Below, piece by piece: positions 3,039 to 56,879 of a stretch of 64,000 nucleotides of DNA (its first letter is position 1; every line of letters starts with the position of its first letter). The translations under genes and the position numbers were made by a program. Source of the stretch: Stegostoma tigrinum (taxonomy: Eukaryota); NCBI RefSeq assembly GCF_030684315.1, contig NC_081396.1:1984001-2048000 (forward strand), given 5' to 3'. The notes under the pieces were generated by a model, which was given only the letters and a program-made list of their open reading frames with translations, had not been told where the DNA came from and made no database searches.

Positions 3039-3493
3039 ATGGGGTCCCCTATGTTCACTCTTATTAACGATCGTTCTGTCTGCTGAGTCACAGGTAAAAT
3101 GCTTAATATATCTTCCTTATTTTTTGACCATTCAGAATTTGTGTTACAGGACTGGTTGAGCAGGATTTGGGGCCTTGGGAACCATCTGAATTCACGATAC
3201 GGGATGCTTCGAGCATGATCATCGAGTGCCATGAAAAAGGACTCTTCATCCTGTGGTTCTGTTCTGGTACACAAACTATCCAGGAAATACTCCAAGATAC
3301 TTCTCACAGATGTTTGGCACGGGGTTGAAGAAAAAAATTCAGGTGTAGAAAACAGATTCTCTGCTGAGTTAAACAAACAAAAAAGATAAACGGTTCCTGT
3401 TGGATCTTCAGAATCATTACGTTTGACAGTGTGTTGTATTTTTGTGACATGAAGCACATGTTGATGCAGAACTATGTTAATCATTTTCAAACG
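3039..3493 (+). pseudogene. TCR alpha/delta-type V pseudogene (leader + V exon + degenerate RSS)
   Basis: Leader-like exon 3039-3093 with GT donor; acceptor TTACAG ending 3149. Frameshifted pieces MIIEC, VLFWYTNYPGNTPRYF, ENRFSAELNKQ and DSVLYFCDMK, followed by CACATGT at 3455. Confidence 0.75.
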
Positions 3494-6100: not shown

Positions 6101-6845
6101 ATTGGAGCGATAGAGTTTCTATTATTCAGCAGGAGCCCTCATTAAAGCAAACAGAGGGAGAAGATGTCTATTGAACCTGTACGTACACCGGTCACAAAGC
6201 CAGGAGGACCAAGTGACCGTTGGTACCACATGGTTTATGACCAGCATTCACATCCCAAAAGGGAACACATGGATTAGTGCTGAAACGTGTGCTAGGTGAG
6301 CAGTCACTTTGGTTTCCAGCTCGTACTAATTCACTGGCCAGGATTCCTCTGCAGTGCAAAGATGAACTCCCAGATAGAAGAGCTGAGCAGTACTTCACCT
6401 GAAGCAACCGCAGCTCTTCCGGCTGGGGGGCCCATCTGCCACAGACTGACCAGAAGTCCTGAACAATTGTTTCAGTTGCTGAGACATCACAGATTAGAAC
6501 TCTGGCATTCGTGTATTCTCCGCAGACCAGCTGGATCTGCCAACCTGAGGAGCACGTTGTTGGCGTATGCCAAAAGAACCACTTCCAGCCCCAGCCCATG
6601 CAGGGCTAAACCCAAAAGCTGTTTATTCAAGAGGTGTAGGAATGGCTCCACGCAGAGAGTGTAAAGCTGGCCAGGCAGGGGGTTAGCCCTGATACACACT
6701 TCTCCCAAAGCATAGGGGTATCACCAGCAACCCATTAACCTTTATTAGGCACTCCACTGCAATGCACAGAAGTTGGATTGAGGTTGATTACTTGTTCTGG
6801 TACTACCAGTACCATGACAGAAAGCCAGAGCTCGCAGTCAGAAAC
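6101..6845 (+). pseudogene. TCR-type V pseudogene split by a retrotransposon fragment
   Basis: After the acceptor CTGCAG: WSDRVSIIQQEPSLKQTEGEDVY*TCTYTG (6101-6192). It resumes at about 6777 with IEVDYLFWYYQYHDRKPELAV. The 3' end is unclear. Confidence 0.75.
6193..6776 (-). mobile_element. Tx1/L1-clade reverse transcriptase fragment
   Basis: ORF 6487-6708 reads PLPGQLYTLCVEPFLHLLNKQL...VVLLAYANNV, a decayed PLSG.LY / AYADD RT motif pair. Confidence 0.7.
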
Positions 6846-11673: not shown

Positions 11674-12417
11674 TTTCCATTCTCTTTGTAAACATGTCAG
11701 CTCCTACACTCTGCTCATTGTTATCAGTTGCATTTCTCTTAACTGGTAAGTTTCTGAGTCGCAAATGTTCTTTTGTATGCATATATGGGTGGAGCAATTT
11801 TCCTTTCGGCTGTGTTGCCCTGCACTAAAATAACCCGACTCTACCAGGGACAATGTTTTTGTATGGTCTGCTTTCTGGCTCCAGTTACTCTATATCTCAG
11901 ACCGCAGTAATACATTGTACTGTCAGACAACTCCAGTATATCGATGGTGAAATTCCCTTCAGCTTTTGAAGCTTCCAGAGATGCAGAGAATCAAACTCCA
12001 ATGCTAATTTCTCTGTTGACCTTTCCGTCTTTTAGGATGTCGATTACGATTGTCAGAGATTTATCTGGGTCCTGACGATACAGTTGCAAGGAAATGAATC
12101 AGCTCTAGCGGAAATGAATGGTCACTGAGTTTCCTTCATTCTGTATTACTGTTACCGGTTGTTGTGAGATTGAATCTGACAACCAACGTCTGCAGAAAAT
12201 TCGAAGACAATGAAATTGAAAGTATAAATATCCTCAATGCCAACATATTAAGTGTATATATTTTAGTGCAGGGCAACACAGCCGAAAGGAAATTTGCTGT
12301 ACCCATATATGCATACAAAAGAACATTTGCGACTCAGAAACTTTCCCGTTATGAGAAATGCAACTGTTAACAATGAGCAGAGTGTAAGAGCTGACATGTT
12401 TACAAAGAGAATGGAAA
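11674..12417. repeat. 159-bp inverted repeat containing a V leader exon (arms 11674-11832 and 12259-12417)
   Basis: The arms align without gaps with 8 mismatches. The + arm has leader MSAPTLCSLLSVAFLLT (11694-11745) with an intact GTAAG donor; the - arm donor is mutated to GAAAG. Confidence 0.9.
11854..12397 (-). pseudogene. TCR alpha/delta-type V pseudogene
   Basis: Leader ATG at 12397. Exon reads SDSISQQPVTVIQNEGNSVTIHFR*...LYRQDPDKSL...FSASLEASKAEGNFTIDILELSDSTMYYCGLR. RSS: TAGAGTA + 23 nt + ACAAAAACA (11854-11892). Confidence 0.88.
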
Positions 12418-13114: not shown

Positions 13115-13570
13115 AATATTGCTCGGTGACTGACTGTGCTTCTGTTATAGTGTGGACATCAGTGTGCAGTAATATATGGTAGAGTCAAAGACAAATGCGC
13201 CAATGGTATTTAATGGAGCTGTTGACTTGGCTTAGTCCAAATTAACAGAAAACCAGCCACAAAAACCCTATAAACATACTTCTATTTCCCTTTCCGAAAC
13301 TCTTTACTAAATATCTCAGCGTTACCTCAGGATGTAGGATTTCCCAGCGAATCCATTGTCGGGGACGGTCCATCATGAACATTCAGTTGAAGGGAATCTT
13401 GGGAAATTGAGCCATGGCCACACATTCCTGCAACAAAAATTACAAGGTATATAGAAATGATATGTGTGTGCAATAACAAAAGCAAGGAAACATATAATGG
13501 TAGTTCCATCTCACACTCACTGGGCAATGTGACCATGGTTATCAGGAAAGCACACGGTGAATGTGCAGAT
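13115..13570 (-). pseudogene. TCR-type V pseudogene
   Basis: Hydrophobic leader ...AFLITMVTLP with GTGAGT donor (13520); acceptor TTGCAG at 13428. GMCGHGSISQDSLQLNVHDG...FSVNLD...FDSTIYYCTLM, then heptamer remnant CACACTA (13148-13154). Confidence 0.78.
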
Positions 13571-24144: not shown

Positions 24145-25661
24145 AAGATAATAAAATGTGAGGCTGGATGAACACAGCAGGCCAAGCAGCATCTCAGGAG
24201 CACAAAAGCTGACGTTTCGGGCCTAGACCCTTCATCAGAGAGGGGGATGGGGGGAGGGAACTGGAATAAATAGGGAGAGAGGGGGAGGCGGACCGAAGAT
24301 GGAGAGTAAAGAAGATAGGTGGAGAGGGTGTAGGTGGGGAGGTAGGGAGGGGATAGGTCAGTCCAGGGAAGACGGACAGGTCAAGGAGGTGGGATGAGGT
24401 TAGTAGGTAGCTGGGGGTGCGGCTTGGGGTGGGAGGAAGGGATGGGTGAGAGGAAGAACCGGTTAGGGAGGCAGAGACAGGTTGGACTGGTTTTGGGATG
24501 CAGTGGGTGGGGGGGAATAGCTGGGCTGGTTGTGTGGTGCAGTGGGGGGAGGGGATGAACTGGGCTGGTTTAGGGATGCAGTGGGGGAAGGGGAGATTTT
24601 GAAACTGGTGAAGTCCACATTGATACCATATGGCTGCAGGGTTCCCAGGCGGAATATGAGTTGCTGTTCCTGCAACCTTCGGGTGGCATCATTGTGGCAG
24701 TGCAGGAGGCCCATGATGGACATGTCATCAAGAGAATGGGAGGGGGAGTGGAAATGGTTTGCGACTGGGAGGCGCAGTTGTTTGTTGCGAACTGAGCGGA
24801 GGTGTTCTGCAAAGCGGTCCCCAAGCCTCCGCTTGGTTTCCCCAATGTAGAGGTAGCCGCACCGGGTACAGTGGATGCAGTATACCACATTGGCAGATGT
24901 GCAGGTGAACCTCTGCTTAATGTGGAATGTCATCTTGGGGCCTGGGATGGGGGTGAGGGAGGAGGTGTGGGGACAAGTGTAGCATTTCCTGCGGTTGCAG
25001 GGGAAGGTGCCGGGTGTGGTGGGGTTGGAGGGCAGTGTGGAGCGAACAAGGGAGTCACGGAGAGAGTGGTCTCTCCGGAAAGCAGACAGGGGAGGGGATG
25101 GAAAAATGTCTTGGGTGGTGGGGTCGGATTGTAAATGGCGGAAGTGTCGGAGGATAATGTGTTGTATCCGGAGGTTGGTAGGGTGGTGTGTGAGAACGAG
25201 GGGGATCCTCTTGGGGCGGTTGTGGCGGGGGCGGGGTGTGAGGGATGTGTCGCGGGAGATGCGGGAGACGCGATCATGGGCGTTCTCAATCACCGTGGGG
25301 GGAAAGTTGCGGTCCTTAAAGAACTTGGACATCTGGGATGTGCGGGAGTGGAATGTCTTATCGTGGGAGCAGATGCGGCGGAGGCGGAGGAATTGGGAAT
25401 AGGGGATGGAATTTTTGCAGGAGGGTGGGTGGGAGGAGGTGTATTCTAGGTAGCTGTGGGAGTCGGTGGGCTTGAAATGGACATCAGTTACAAGCTGGTT
25501 GCCTTCAGATGGAGACTGAGAGGTCCAGGAAGGTGAGGGATATGCTGGAGATGGCCCAGGTGAACTGAAGGTTGGGGTGGAAGGTGTTGGTGAAGTGGAT
25601 GAACTGTTCGAGCTCCTCTGGGGAGCAAGAGGCGGCGCCGATACAGTCATCAATGTACCGG
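24145..25661 (-). mobile_element. Penelope-like retroelement, 5'-truncated (RT C-terminus + GIY-YIG endonuclease + tail)
   Basis: RYIDD...TFLDL RT motifs; KPTDSHSYL; SIPYSQFLRLRRIC; VVYCIHC...LYIGETKRRLGDRFAEH (GIY-YIG). One frameshift near 25505. Confidence 0.92.
24209..24240 (-). ncRNA. Minimal hammerhead ribozyme motif in the Penelope tail
   Basis: Reverse complement is CT-CTGATGA-A-GGG TCTAGG CCC-GAAA-CG-TC-AG. Confidence 0.75.
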
Positions 25662-26966
25662 ATTCCATCCCCTATTCCCAATTCCTCCGCCTCCGCCGCA
25701 TCTGCTCCCACGATAAGACATTCCACTCCCGCACATCCCAGATGTCCAAGTTCTTTAAGGACCGCAACTTTCCCCCGACGGTGATTGAGAACGCCCTTGA
25801 CCGCGTCTCCCGCATCTCCCGCGACACATCCCTCACACCCCGCCCCCACCACAACCGCCCCAAGAGGATCCCCCTCGTTCTCACACACCACCCTACCAAC
25901 CTCCGGATACAACGCATTATCCTCCGACACTTCCGCCATTTACAATCCGACCCCACCACCCAAGACATTTTTCCATCCCCTCCCCTGTCTGCTTTCCGGC
26001 GAGACCACTCTCTCCGTGACTCCCTTGTTCGCTCCACACTGCCCTCCAACCCCACCACACCCGGCACCTTCCCCTGCAACCGCAGGAAATGCTACACTTG
26101 TCCCCACACCTCCTCCCTCACCCCCATCCCAGGCCACAAGATGACATTCCACATTAAGCAGAGGTTCACCTGCACATCTGCCAATGTGGTATACTGCATC
26201 CACTGTACCCGGTGCGGCTACCTCTACATTGGGGAAACCAAGCGGAGGCTTGGGGACCGCTTTGCAGAACACCTCCGCTCAGTTCGCAACAAACAACTGC
26301 ACCTCCCAGTCGCAAACCATTTCCACTCCCCCTCCCATTCTCTTGATGACATGTCCATCATGGGCCTCCTGCACTGCCACAATGATGCCACCCGAAGGTT
26401 GCAGGAACAGCAACTCATATTCCGCCTGGGAACCCTGCAGCCATATGGTATCAATGTGGACTTCACCAGTTTCAAAATCTCCCCTTCCCCCACTGCATCC
26501 CTAAACCAGCCCAGTTCATCCCCTCCCCCCACTGCACCACACAACCAGCCCAGCTCTTCCCCCCCACCCACTGCATCCCAAAACCAGTCCAACCTGTCTC
26601 TGCCTCCCTAACCGGTTCTTCCTCTCACCCATCCCTTCCTCCCACCCCAAGCCGCACCCCCAGCTACCTACTAACCTCATCCCACCTCCTTGACCTGTCC
26701 GTCTTCCCTGGACTGACCTATCCCCTCCCTACCTCCCCACCTACACCCTCTCCACCTATCTTCTTTCCTCTCCATCTTCGGTCCGCCTCCCCCTCTCTCC
26801 CTATTTATTCCAGTTCCCTCCCCCCATCCCCCTCTCTGATGAAGGGTCTAGGCCCGAAACGTCAGCTTTTGTGCTCCTGAGATGCTGCTTGGCCTGCTGT
26901 GTTCATCCAGCCTCACATTTTATTATCTTGGAATCTCCAGCATCTGCAGTTCCCATTATCTCTTAT
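25662..26966 (+). mobile_element. Penelope-like retroelement, second copy, inverted relative to the first
   Basis: ORF 25577-26611 carries the same GIY-YIG domain with only a handful of substitutions versus the left copy. The composite is flanked by ACCTGATTATTCTAA (24132-24146, 26967-26981). Confidence 0.92.
26834..26865 (+). ncRNA. Minimal hammerhead ribozyme motif in the Penelope tail
   Basis: CT-CTGATGA-A-GGG TCTAGG CCC-GAAA-CG-TC-AG: conserved CUGANGA/GAAA/UH core with a very short palindromic stem III. Confidence 0.75.
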
Positions 26967-45884: not shown

Positions 45885-46213
45885 ATAGAGATTCTATCAC
45901 TCAGCCTTTGCCCTCATATGTTTAGACAGAAGGATAAGAGCAGATTTTAATCTTTTCCTATCACCTGGCCTGGGGTTACTCTTATTTATTCTGGTACTGA
46001 CAACATCAATACTGACAGCCTGAGTTTATTCCATAAAGGCATTCAAGTGGTTCAGAATATGAAGCAGACTTTGTCGAAAAGTGCTTCAACCTCCAGATAC
46101 TGAATGAATTAGCCAGTTTAACTATCTCGTGTCTGAAGCTGACTGACTGTCTGGTGAGTTACTGAGCTCTCAGGCTCAGTGTTGGAAAACTTCTAGTACG
46201 AACTACAAAAAAA
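45885..46213 (+). pseudogene. TCR alpha/delta-type V pseudogene with 23-RSS
   Basis: One frame with stops: DSITQPLPSYV*TEG*...YSYLFWY*QHQY*QPEFI...ADFVEKCF...ASLTISCLKLTDCLVSY*ALR. RSS: CTCAGTG + 23 nt + ACAAAAAAA (46175-46213). Confidence 0.85.
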
Positions 46214-53005: not shown

Positions 53006-53474
53006 ATGAAAATCGTTGTTATTTTTATTCTGTATAGCTGGCTACCTCGTGAGTATTGATGAAACAAGCACACGTTGTTTTGATTCAATGTAAAGAATCC
53101 CATGAACATAGCCGCTGAGTTCACATTCTTTGTAGTTTTACTCTGCTTTGATTATCCATTTAATTCTCTCTTCTTAATTCCCAGGTTATTTCAGTCAGTC
53201 AGTGACACAAGCCCCAACAGCTGTGACCAAGAAGGAGTGTCAGTCTTTCATAATTACCTGTGTTTACTATGGTCACAACTGGGGTTATTATTTCGAAGAC
53301 GGATATTTCCTCAGGCAAACCCAGACCAGCACAGACCGGGAGCGGATATCCAGTGGAGGGAGATTTGTTGTACGCATGAACAAGGAAGAAAAAACTTTTT
53401 CACTGGAGATTCGGGATGTAAGAGTTGAAGATACCGCCACCTATTACTGTGAAGTACGTTACTACAATGATAGA
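53006..53474 (+). CDS. NARTCR: NAR-TCR variable gene segment (IgNAR-like V): leader 53006-53048 + V exon 53185-53474, intact
   Basis: Leader MKIVVIFILYSWLP|GTGAGT. V reads SQSVTQAPTAVTKKECQSFIITCVYY...LRQTQTSTDRERISSGGRFVVRMNKEEKTFSLEIRDVRVEDTATYYCEVR. The short FR2-CDR2 region (ISSGGRF) is typical of NAR V domains. Confidence 0.92.
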
Positions 53475-53512
53475 CACAGTGATGACCGAATATATCACGT
53501 AGTACAAAAACA
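53475..53512 (+). other. RSS of NAR-TCR V (23-class, 22-nt spacer)
   Basis: CACAGTG + 22 nt + ACAAAAACA. Confidence 0.93.
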
Positions 53513-53826
53513 CATTTTCCAGATTTTCACTCAGAAATACATGAAAGTATAACACCATTCTAGTATAAACAAAATAGATCTTGTAACATCTACGCCACAG
53601 TCTAATTTCCAATGTTACTTTTTTTTTAATTAGCGTTATCATCTGCAATTTTGAACACAACAAACTTCCGCAGAAGATGCTTGTTTTTCTTGTAATTGGA
53701 CTCTGTGTGTAAAAGTTGGGAATGAAGAAAACAGTTAAGAGTCCACAAACCAGGATCTGATTCTAAGAACTGGAACCTGGAGACACTGCTACTTAGTTAT
53801 TGTCTGCACATCTCACCAATACCTGG

Positions 53827-53897
53827 GGTTTGAATGTTGCTATGAAATACTGTGTCCTATTTGGGCTATCACAGTGGATGAGACCTGAACAAATATT
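53827..53897 (+). other. NAR-TCR D segment (coding 53855-53869) with 12-RSS on both sides
   Basis: GGTTTGAAT-12-TACTGTG [TCCTATTTGGGCTAT] CACAGTG-12-ACAAATATT. All three frames are open (SYLGY/PIWA/LFGL). Confidence 0.88.
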
Positions 53898-54203
53898 GCT
53901 GTGTAATTGAAATATATCGTTTGCTTTCCATGATTGTGAAATACATTCATTACTTTTGCTTTCCATGGTGTTAATTCCTTTTATTTTTTTTTCTGACCTC
54001 TCTCTATAGTTTTCTCCATTTCCCTGAAACTCTCTCCTCCACATTGCTGGGTCATCTTGCTAAGATTCAAAGTCTCACAAGTAACATTTTGAAACAATAC
54101 GGTCAGGAAAATATGGAACAATGTTCATTGATCTAAAGGCACTGAAAAATGAGAAACAGAATCAAGTGCCCTTAAGATGAGGCTGACAGCTTATACCAAT
54201 AAT

Positions 54204-54295
54204 GGTTCTTGCTCTGGTATGACTGACAACAGTGCCACTGTGTAGGGAATATAATACTGTAATTGGATCTGGGACAGCGGTGACGATCACAGCAG
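54204..54295 (+). other. NAR-TCR J segment (coding 54243-54295) with 23-RSS
   Basis: GGTTCTTGC-23-CACTGTG, then REYNTVIGSGTAVTITA and a phase-1 GTAAG donor at 54296. Confidence 0.92.
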
Positions 54296-54399
54296 GTAAG
54301 TGACTCCAAATGCATGTGTTACAAACTGTCTCAATTAATGTCCGTTGCCAGTTAATTTTTGAGACCCGTGTCACTTCAATCTTACAGTAGGAAGTCAGG

Positions 54400-55400
54400 G
54401 AATAATTACAGTTGGAAGTCAGGGAAGAAATCCAAGGTCCATATGATTTTTGGCCCAGCCTACGCTGAGAAATGATGAAGATAATCAAACCAGCGTTGAC
54501 CCAAACTTTTCCTTTCATCCTGGCCATAGAAATGGTTCCATATGACTGGAAAGCATTGAATACGTTTCCAAGTTTGAAGAAGGTTGGTAGTGATAAACCA
54601 GGAAGTTGCATACCAGTGAGTTTTACTTCAGCGACAAGGAAACGAATGGCAAGGCTCTCATTTTTAATAAGCAAGGTTTGAACACTGATAGTCAGATTTT
54701 GTCTCAGTGGGTTGTATCAACAGATTGAATTATTTTTAAAGATGATCAATTGAGTAAATGTGGATAGTGAAGCTTATGTAATTTATATAGATTTCAGCAA
54801 AGCCTTTGATAAGGCCTCACACTGGAGTCTGTGAAAGAACCTGGAAACACATCACATACAGGATAACTTGGCAAGTTGGATCCAGGCTGGCTTACTGGTA
54901 GGAGAATGGTAATGGAAAGCTATTTGTGTGTGTGGAAGACAGTATCCAATGGCTTACCACAGGAATCAGATCTGGGTCGCCATCAGACAGAATATCTTTA
55001 GTTATAGAAACATAGTTGATCAGATCGGCAGTTCGGAGGCAGATAGAATTTGAATTGGATAGCGTACTTTAGGGAAGTGAACCTGTAGTCCGTACTTGGT
55101 CTTGACCTATATTTGACTCCAGACGCACAGCAACGTGGTGGACACTTTACAGCCCTTTGGGCAATAAGGAATGGGCAAAAAATATTGGTCTAATCAGCAA
55201 CGCCCGCATCCTGTGAAGCTTTTTTTGTGCAATGTTTGGGAGATGTAATGAGACAATGGAATCTTCTTGGATGGCAGGATGCTGGGAAGCTGAGAAGAGC
55301 AGAGGGATCTTGGGATGCTTGCAAGCAGATCACTGAAGACAGCAGGACTTAATATGGTGATTAAGAAAGCATATAGGATACTTGCTATTATCAATCATGA
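54400..55400 (+). mobile_element. Old CR1 RT remnant within the J-to-supporting-V intron
   Basis: VPYDWK...KPGSCIPVSFTS and IYIDFSKAFDK remnants. Confidence 0.7.
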
Positions 55401-56347
55401 CAGTGTTTGGAAAAGTAGAGTGCAGCTGCGCAAGACTTCTGTTAGTCGAGAAGTGTGAGTTTCTCCTTTCAATAGACAGCATATATATATCGTTGAAAGG
55501 CTTTCTTTTGTCCAACGATCGTTCTATAATTCCATTCTACGATTATTTGACCACTGTCAGCTTGAATCCAATGGAGAACCATGAACTGCAATTTCCTCTC
55601 CAAGCTAATGTCCATGCTGACTTGGTGAATATGTCTTTATCGCTGAGTCTAATTCCAAAAATCACTCCTAACGGCATTTTGGCTGTACTTAGCACCCAAT
55701 GGTTTGCACTTGTGCATAAAGGCGGCTAACAACCTCCTACTAATGAGCAACTAGGTGTGAGAAACGAGCTCTCACTCCGACAGCTACATTCTGATCTCAA
55801 AAATGAATAAAAAAGTAGACACATAAAACTGGTGCACTCTCCAACTCCAAAAGTTTGAGTTTCTGAGAAAAGGAGAATTAAGTGTGGGAATACATCCACC
55901 GTTTGTGATTTTTGAAAAAATTATGTGCAGATTTTAGTAGAAATCAGAGAATTAAACAGAGCAAAATCTTATCATAACCTCCACAACGTCCCGGTGGATT
56001 CTTCCAAATTATTTTAAAACTGTGATCATCACCCTTACGTTTTCCAGTGCTCTGATAATTATTAAACGTGTTAGATTTTTTTTTCAAAATTCCCGTTTGA
56101 GAGTTACTTTGACTAATTCCCATTCGTCGTATATTCTGTCATATGACCCTGATCACAACAACTTGCATTCTGTTTTCCAAAAAAAATCTCCACATCTCGC
56201 TGCTTTTTTTGTGTGTTAATTCTTGTGAAGACATACCAAAACTACACCAAATGAAGAATAAGTCCTTATTAATAGAGCTGTACAGAACATTAACATGTTT
56301 TACAGAAACAAAGGACACACAATAAACTTTTTTTTAAAATCTGACAG

Positions 56348-56657
56348 ATTCCACTTCGCTGGTTTCCCAGAGTCCACTTTTACAGGCCTCCGCTGTTGAT
56401 GACACTGTTGCTTTAAGCTGTGAATATTCAGGCTTCTGTCAGTATGTAGTTTACTGGTACAGCCAGTCCCCAAGACAGGCGATGAAATATCTGCTTCAGG
56501 GACATACTTCAGGAGAAGAGAAGAAGCTAAATGCGGCCACGGAACGTCTTTCTACCACAAACGACCCTGCAGCGAAAATCACCCACTTAAAGATCTCTGC
56601 AATACAACTGAATGATTCTGCTGTGTATTACTGTGCACTCAGTAAGCGCTCAAGAAA
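56348..56657 (+). CDS. TRDV: Leaderless supporting TCR delta V segment of NAR-TCR, intact
   Basis: Acceptor CTGACAG is in phase with the J donor. Reads DSTSLVSQSPLLQASAVDDTVALSCEYSGFCQYVVYWYSQSPRQAMKYLL...KISAIQLNDSAVYYCALSK, with an extra Cys in CDR1. No convincing leader exon upstream. Confidence 0.92.
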
Positions 56658-56879
56658 CACAGCGATATAAAGACTGGGAGAGCTGTACAAAAACCTGAAC
56701 ATTATGGTATTGCAGACACAAGGGTCCAGAGCGAGCGTGGAGAGCGCTGTGCAGAGCATGCACACGTTGAGGATTACATTCACAGTGTTATAGAGACTGG
56801 AGTGGCTTTTACAAAAACATGAGAGTGGTAGGCTTACAGACGTAGTGATTTAGACCAAGGAGAGAGCTGTACAAAAACT
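56658..56879 (+). repeat. Tandem array of four RSS-like units (about 60-bp period); unit 1 is the supporting V RSS
   Basis: U1 CACAGCG-22-ACAAAAACC (56658); U2 CACAAGG-27-GCAGAGCAT (56717); U3 CACAGTG-23-ACAAAAACA (56781); U4 CGTAGTG-23-ACAAAAACT (56841). All three linkers are 21 nt. Confidence 0.85.

What the first reader, a model, noticed from the sequence alone, without database searches (positions are those of the whole stretch)
53006..56695. Complete germline NAR-TCR cassette (L-V-D-J + leaderless Vdelta), invisible as a unit in the ORF track
Seen: all parts are in order on one strand within 3.7 kb, with open frames, compatible phase-1 splice sites and RSS obeying the 12/23 rule. Established: sharks make a doubly rearranging TCR delta chain with an IgNAR-like V domain on top of a supporting Vdelta. 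The system is known, but this is the only intact antigen-receptor unit in 64 kb, and automated annotation would probably miss the D and J.
Basis: partly seen in the sequence, partly recalled or inferred. Interest (0 to 1): 0.7.

Follow-up and report, generated by a model that had tools for sequence, protein, structure and literature searches.

The report
Intact shark double-rearranging T-cell receptor cassette
This is an intact germline copy of a known shark T-cell receptor gene unit (NAR-TCR) that likely stacks an antibody-like binding domain on a normal receptor domain by two DNA rearrangements; its second segment is followed by a stacked row of DNA-cutting signals whose role is untested.

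Summary
Confirmed. Leader, IgNAR-like V, 12/12 D, J and a leaderless V-delta lie in order at 53006-56695, with open frames, phase-1 splice sites and compatible signals. All four published NAR-TCR sequence marks are met. It is no orphon: D-delta, 11 J-delta and C-delta lie 1.08 Mb away on the same contig, opposite strand, so the second join would be an inversion. Seven paralogous cassettes lie 3.3-3.7 Mb further on; a whale shark record is the probable orthologue (89% and 85%). A public model already joins L-V-J-V-delta and misses only D. No RNA could be tested.

The extra units show no selection on heptamer or nonamer, and a stop precedes them here, so a relic is favoured. The scan has noted this row before in other shark genomes. 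Verdict: new member of a known kind.

The parts
53006..53048 (+). Leader exon, 14 codons plus 1 nt, hydrophobic, phase-1 donor
53185..53474 (+). NAR-TCR V exon (IgNAR-like V; a-b loop Cys present, Trp of WYRK absent)
53475..53512 (+). V recombination signal, 22-nt spacer (22 also in 6 of 7 paralogues)
53827..53854 (-). 5' signal of D, 12-nt spacer, weak nonamer (3 mismatches)
53855..53869 (+). D segment, 15 nt, open in three forward frames
53870..53897 (+). 3' signal of D, 12-nt spacer
54204..54242 (-). J signal, 23-nt spacer
54243..54295 (+). NAR-TCR J segment, phase-1 donor at 54296
54296..56347 (+). Intron from J to supporting V (2,052 nt); holds decayed repeat pieces near 54711-55445; no leader exon at the usual distance
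56348..56657 (+). Leaderless supporting V-delta exon (CDR1 Cys present)
56658..56695 (+). First signal of the supporting V (CACAGCG, 22-nt spacer; the paralogues have 23)
56719..56780 (+). Second, worn unit of the tandem row (below the scoring threshold; placed by period)
56781..56819 (+). Third unit: near-consensus 23-spacer signal (CACAGTG ... ACAAAAACA), behind an in-frame stop
56841..56879 (+). Fourth unit: heptamer broken (no CAC), nonamer kept

Best explanation
This is an intact germline NAR-TCR cassette of a shark TCR alpha/delta locus, and it likely works by two independent RAG rearrangements. Shown: all segments, frames, splice phases and signals, and a D-delta (12/23), 11 J-delta and C-delta 1.08 Mb away on the opposite strand. 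Inferred step 1: local deletional V-D-J joining (22/12, 12/23) makes the IgNAR-like V exon. Inferred step 2: the supporting V joins D-delta or a J-delta by a 1.08-Mb inversion. Inferred step 3: splicing leader - VDJ - supporting VDJ - C-delta gives a three-domain delta chain, in which the unpaired NAR V binds antigen and the two extra cysteines would link the two V domains. The tandem signal row behind the supporting V is most likely an old duplication that was copied along with the cassette and is decaying (about 60%). Only the first unit can give a productive join here.
For: Anatomy. The top 10 solved-structure matches include 9 shark VNARs (best E 2e-15, colinear, no CDR2 insert). Marks from PMC1845163: leader, a-b loop Cys and no Trp in WYRK in V1; no leader and a CDR1 Cys in V2. 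All are met. The a-b Cys is in 12 of 12 and the CDR1 Cys in 11 of 12 aligned models. Leader test within 700 nt: 8 of 8 NAR Vs, 20 of 28 ordinary Vs, 1 of 8 supporting Vs and not this one. Linked D-J-C-delta, J-alpha run and second C. Seven paralogous cassettes at C55 5.39-5.79 Mb with the same order. Whale shark record P0003 is nearest in both trees (89% and 85%; 100/99 support for the supporting V), with both frames open. Public DNA contigs list no change in either V exon. Row: unit 1 keeps heptamer plus nonamer better than spacer (0.91 vs 0.75, n=12), the later units do not (0.755 vs 0.806, n=39); strong later signals 6 of 28 against 9.5 expected from even decay.
Against: No transcript or rearranged read was seen, so function rests on intactness and conservation. 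The supporting V's first signal is slightly off consensus (CACAGCG, 22 spacer where the 11 other supporting Vs have 23). Both D nonamers have 3 mismatches. One contig shows a 1-nt loss in the V nonamer run (53506). The cassette stands alone among broken V pieces, and its nearest own-genome relative (L008) is a pseudogene. C-delta is identified by position and a 44% match to a shark model, with only a weak match to a solved TCR delta (E 4e-4). Against a pure relic: the row is in 12 of 12 supporting Vs, 5 of 8 open-frame ones keep a strong later signal, and it is somewhat more alike between lineages (0.60-0.61) than other non-coding parts (0.51-0.58; shuffled 0.48-0.52).
Confidence: 0.88

Rival explanations
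1. The cassette is intact in sequence but silent or rarely used, a young pseudogene stranded among broken V segments.
For: No RNA evidence could be had. Off-consensus signals. Neighbours in the window are broken Vs. The sister NAR V at C55 2.25 Mb is broken.
Against: Every frame, splice site and signal is intact, and the probable whale shark orthologue is intact too. It is the closest complete cassette to D-delta (1.08 Mb against 4.4-4.8 Mb). Linked C-delta is present.
Confidence: 0.09
2. The cassette is as described, and the stacked signals are functional: extra 23-signals raise RAG capture of a promoter-less V far from D-delta. A first, non-productive inversion at a later signal would tow the whole cassette next to D-J-C and leave the first signal free to join a remaining J-delta (12 spacer).
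For: The row is specific to supporting Vs (12 of 12 against 0 of 46). A second unit shows in read-through tails of whale shark and sawshark records (p=0.002 each). The third unit here is nearer consensus than the first. The geometry allows it: 11 J-delta, 9 with a 12-spacer signal found.
Against: Later units keep heptamer and nonamer no better than spacer. Strong later signals are no more frequent than even decay predicts (6 of 28 vs 9.5). 3 of 8 open-frame supporting Vs have none. The units are not independent of each other, which weakens these tests in both directions.
Confidence: 0.2
3. The first half is a piece of an IgNAR antibody cluster that only happens to lie before an unrelated TCR V.
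For: The V is VNAR-like and the D has antibody-type 12/12 signals (type recalled).
Against: One D only, and no constant exon in the window or in 30 kb of flank by a TCR C query; no C1-set match is listed between 0.95 and 2.79 Mb (150 of 318 candidates scored). The V groups with NAR-TCR Vs, apart from the two IgNAR-type Vs L010 and L011. The same V-D-J-V order recurs in 7 paralogues and in other sharks' models.
Confidence: 0.02

Closest known systems
NAR-TCR of cartilaginous fish (Criscitiello et al. 2006; paper not held, known here through passages of PMC1845163, PMC6795676, PMC5931798, PMC12227049)
   Same: Leader plus IgNAR-like V with a-b loop Cys and no Trp in WYRK; own D and J; leaderless supporting V-delta with CDR1 Cys; in the TCR alpha/delta locus among IgH clusters. 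Table S1 of PMC12227049 lists NARTCR models in both orientations among IgM clusters in great white shark.
   Different: A divergent lone copy (59-63% to the own paralogues). Its J has IGSG where most have DGSG, and the supporting V's first signal has a 22 spacer. The tandem signal row is not mentioned in any passage I could read.
IgNAR V region cluster
   Same: V sequence (best E 2e-15), short CDR2 region, 22-spacer V signal.
   Different: One D here, where the IgNAR-type locus L011 shows several 12-spacer signals. No constant exons follow; the J splices to a V-delta.
TCR-mu of marsupials and monotremes (PMC3457774 passages)
   Same: Three-domain chain with an unpaired N-terminal V on a supporting V.
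   Different: TCR-mu uses VH-like Vs and its own clusters with a C. The paper calls the likeness convergent.

Membership tests
NAR-TCR | N-terminal V related to IgNAR V | tested here: met
   (9 of the top 10 matches are VNARs)
NAR-TCR | NAR V has a typical split leader | tested here: met
   feature
NAR-TCR | Cys in the a-b loop of the NAR V | tested here: met
   KECQS motif
NAR-TCR | No canonical Trp in the WYRK motif | tested here: met
   YFLRQ aligned to YWYRK
NAR-TCR | Own D and J with 12/23-compatible signals | tested here: met
NAR-TCR | Supporting V-delta lacks a leader | tested here: met
   none within 700 nt; two marginal chance-level candidates about 900 nt upstream
NAR-TCR | Supporting V-delta has a CDR1 Cys | tested here: met
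   SGFCQY motif
NAR-TCR | Linked D-delta, J-delta, C-delta | tested here: met
   C55 944-961 kb, minus strand; C-delta named by position and a 44% match
NAR-TCR | Doubly rearranged, spliced transcript | not testable with these tools
   no RNA holder listed
NAR-TCR | Disulfide between the two V domains | not tested
   both Cys present; no structure model made
IgNAR cluster | Several D segments and constant exons directly downstream | tested here: not met
   one D; no C1 exon listed near; feature recalled

The most novel reading that the evidence does not exclude
Stacked 23-spacer signals behind every NAR-TCR supporting V are a dedicated recombination device. They raise capture of a promoter-less, megabase-distant V, or allow a two-step join in which an inversion at a later signal tows the cassette beside D-J-C-delta and the first signal then makes the productive join. 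This would offset the low odds of two in-frame rearrangements.
Probability: 0.18. Interest if true: 0.7.

Novelty: new member of a known kind. Interest (0 to 1): 0.3.

Why it matters
The cassette itself adds a precise germline annotation (D, signals, partner D-J-C, inversion geometry) for a known receptor that public annotation calls 'uncharacterized'. It gives primers and joint coordinates for repertoire work. The wider value is the signal row: if the extra signals are used, they would be a way of tuning V(D)J recombination that I found in none of my searches, and it can be tested directly in thymus DNA. My sequence tests lean towards a relic.

Tried and rejected
RNA: no RNA holder listed, which is no evidence either way. 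The four runs were laid as contigs; the joints listed there have short sides and 'between: not known', and I treat them as other repeat copies or paralogues, including 56701>56852.

Orphon: rejected by the linked D-J-C-delta. IgNAR cluster: rejected (see rivals). Second D at the weak 12-signal 53682-53709: no partner signal found, rejected. Later signals as a CDR3-length switch: rejected for this gene, since a stop falls 11 codons after the YYC motif, before any later unit; it stays formally open for L007, whose second unit is perfect and precedes the stop. E-box or RUNX sites in the row: not consistent (CAGCTG in 3 of 8, none here). Row in elephant shark: not seen in a read-through tail (p=0.22), but the model is spliced, so inconclusive. 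Epaulette shark tail: positive (16.5 against a 95th percentile of 4.3), not (p=0.28). The 'near' protein search gave 1 protein. A genome-wide DNA search with one row found 5 places, all behind supporting Vs, but missed several known rows, so it is insensitive. The earlier-findings look-up by place gave nothing. Papers not held: the 2006, 2010, 2019 and 2021 shark TCR papers. The supplement search of PMC3964593 gave no hit. No structure or complex was predicted.

Full report
1. Observation. The leader exon 53006-53048 ends in phase 1 and splices over 136 nt into an open V exon, 53185-53474, followed by a 22-spacer signal. A 15-nt D (53855-53869) sits between two 12-spacer signals. A J (54243-54295) has a 23-spacer signal before it and a phase-1 donor behind it. 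After a 2,052-nt intron an open V exon (56348-56657) begins at a phase-1 acceptor and ends in a signal at 56658-56695. Five strict signals fall in 3,895 bases against one in the other 60,105. Contigs of four public runs cover the stretch and list no change in either V exon; one shows a 1-nt loss in the V nonamer run and one a change at the third base of J. These runs count as at most one sample and may be the assembly's source.

2. What it is. Both Vs are Pfam V-set. The first V matches shark VNARs best: 9 of the top 10 solved-structure sequences, best E 2e-15, colinear over the short CDR2 region. PMC1845163 (passages) gives the marks of NAR-TCR: leader, a-b loop Cys and no Trp in WYRK for the first V; no leader and a CDR1 Cys for the supporting V. 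All are met. A simple leader finder fired within 700 nt for 8 of 8 NAR Vs, 20 of 28 ordinary Vs and 1 of 8 supporting Vs, not for this one. A protein record 100% identical over the supporting V, on a contig of the same length as C55, is labelled Stegostoma tigrinum, 'uncharacterized'. It joins leader, V, J and V-delta and omits D, so annotation sees the unit but does not name it.

3. Surroundings. The window is G000:C55:1,984,001-2,048,000. The NAR V has 17 matches and the supporting V 110, of which the closest are seven pairs at 5.39-5.79 Mb with the same order of V, D, J and supporting V. One of the seven has a stop in the NAR V, and two have lost a Cys in the supporting V. A shark TCR constant query found two constant regions on the minus strand, at 944-947 kb and 843-844 kb. 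Before the first lie one D (12/23 signals, 961,056-961,073) and 11 Js, 9 of them with a 12-spacer signal found. Between the two constant regions I counted 26 J motifs in the roughly 65 kb sampled out of about 100 kb. This is the D-J-C-delta, J-alpha, C-alpha order (order recalled; PMC3457774 passages give the 12/23 D). The supporting V's signal and the D-delta 12-signal point the same way 1,079,584 bases apart, so their join would be an inversion. Table S1 of PMC12227049 (both parts read) lists NARTCR models in both orientations among IgM clusters in great white shark, and TCR-alpha opposite to many Vs in epaulette shark, so this layout is ordinary. In trees of 25 and 30 rows the nearest row to both Vs is whale shark record P0003 (89% and 85%); the own paralogues are 59-63% and 55-66% identical. 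Rows left out: records whose V my patterns did not pick up, zebra shark duplicates, and the most broken own copies.

4. Behind the supporting V lie further signal units: a worn one, a near-consensus 23-signal at 56781-56819 and one with a broken heptamer at 56841-56879. The first 60 bases from the first heptamer recur downstream with z above 4 in 8 of 8 open-frame and 4 of 4 broken supporting Vs, in 0 of 10 NAR-type Vs and in 0 of 36 other Vs. The 36 were chosen from the hits and the stretches fetched, not at random; two loci gave no usable V, and three further broken supporting Vs were not tested. Tandem Repeats Finder gives a 60-61 base period (or its double) in 9 of the 12, not for this copy. 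Read-through tails of gene models show a second unit in whale shark and sawshark records (p=0.002 each), mixed results for epaulette shark and none for elephant shark.

5. Is the row functional? Unit 1 keeps heptamer plus nonamer better than spacer (0.91 vs 0.75, n=12); later units do not (0.755 vs 0.806, n=39). Strong later signals number 6 of 28, against 9.5 expected from even decay (P=0.11). Here a stop falls 11 codons after the YYC motif, so a join at a later signal cannot be productive. On the other side, 5 of 8 open-frame supporting Vs keep a strong later signal, and the row is a little more alike between lineages than other non-coding parts (0.60-0.61 vs 0.51-0.58, shuffled 0.48-0.52). 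The units share ancestry, so none of these p-values is exact. I put a decaying relic at about 60%, use as extra RAG signals at about 20%, and another role at about 20%.

6. Mechanism. Shown: the parts, frames, phases, signals and partner segments. Inferred from the known system (passages of PMC1845163, PMC6795676, PMC5931798): local deletional V-D-J joining; a second, inversional join of the supporting V to D-delta and J-delta; splicing to a three-domain delta chain that pairs with a gamma chain, with the NAR V unpaired. Untested: expression (no RNA holder listed) and the link between the two extra cysteines.

7. Novelty. The receptor is known since 2006, and this is one of eight cassettes in this genome: a new member of a known kind. 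I found no mention of the signal row in searches (listings only) or in the passages read. The primary NAR-TCR papers and their supplements were not held and may describe it. The scan has four earlier, unchecked notes on the same row in other shark genomes. I had found and measured it before that look-up, and I do not count them as support.

8. Verdict. Observation confirmed, reading supported, orphon excluded at DNA level. Interest 0.3: low for the cassette, raised by the specific and testable signal row.

Noticed in passing
window 11890-12190, minus strand: TCR V pseudogene with stops, first Cys lost and a worn signal.
   Followed up: partly
window 45887-46174, plus strand: TCR alpha/delta V pseudogene with many stops.
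   Followed up: no
window 3259-3318, 6115-6195, 6783-6842 (plus); 13160-13264 (minus): Short V remnants; the pieces at 6115 and 6783 look like one V split by an insertion.
   Followed up: no
window 54711-55445: High-copy repeat pieces in the intron (depth peaks), with a DFSKAFD motif near 54790; the label CR1-type LINE is recalled.
   Followed up: partly
window 24173-26901: Sequences recur in inverted order (24173/26901, 24696/26378, 25039/26035) with a GC-skew flip: a large inverted repeat of about 2.7 kb.
   Followed up: no
L006, L007, L004 (G000:C55 5.64-5.79 Mb): L006 supporting V lacks the CDR1 Cys; L007 supporting V lacks the first canonical Cys and 7 residues, yet has the best-kept signal row; L004 NAR V has a stop.
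   Followed up: partly
L015-L018 (G000:C55 5.27-5.70 Mb): Broken supporting Vs with signal rows and no NAR V found in the 8-9 kb upstream that was fetched.
   Followed up: partly
G000:C55 0.97-1.12 Mb against 0.84-0.96 Mb: Most proximal TCR Vs lie opposite to D-J-C, so inversion would be the usual join here; the epaulette shark table shows the same polarity.
   Followed up: partly
L021, G000:C55:961056-961073: Only one D-delta candidate in 950-980 kb, against 11 J-delta.
   Followed up: partly
L010, L011 (G000:C55 2.93 and 8.05 Mb): IgNAR-type Vs followed by several C1 exons, likely IgNAR clusters in the same contig.
   Followed up: partly
P0001: The public model bridges V to J with residues that the V, D and J segments do not encode, apparently by splicing through the signal heptamers.
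   Followed up: partly
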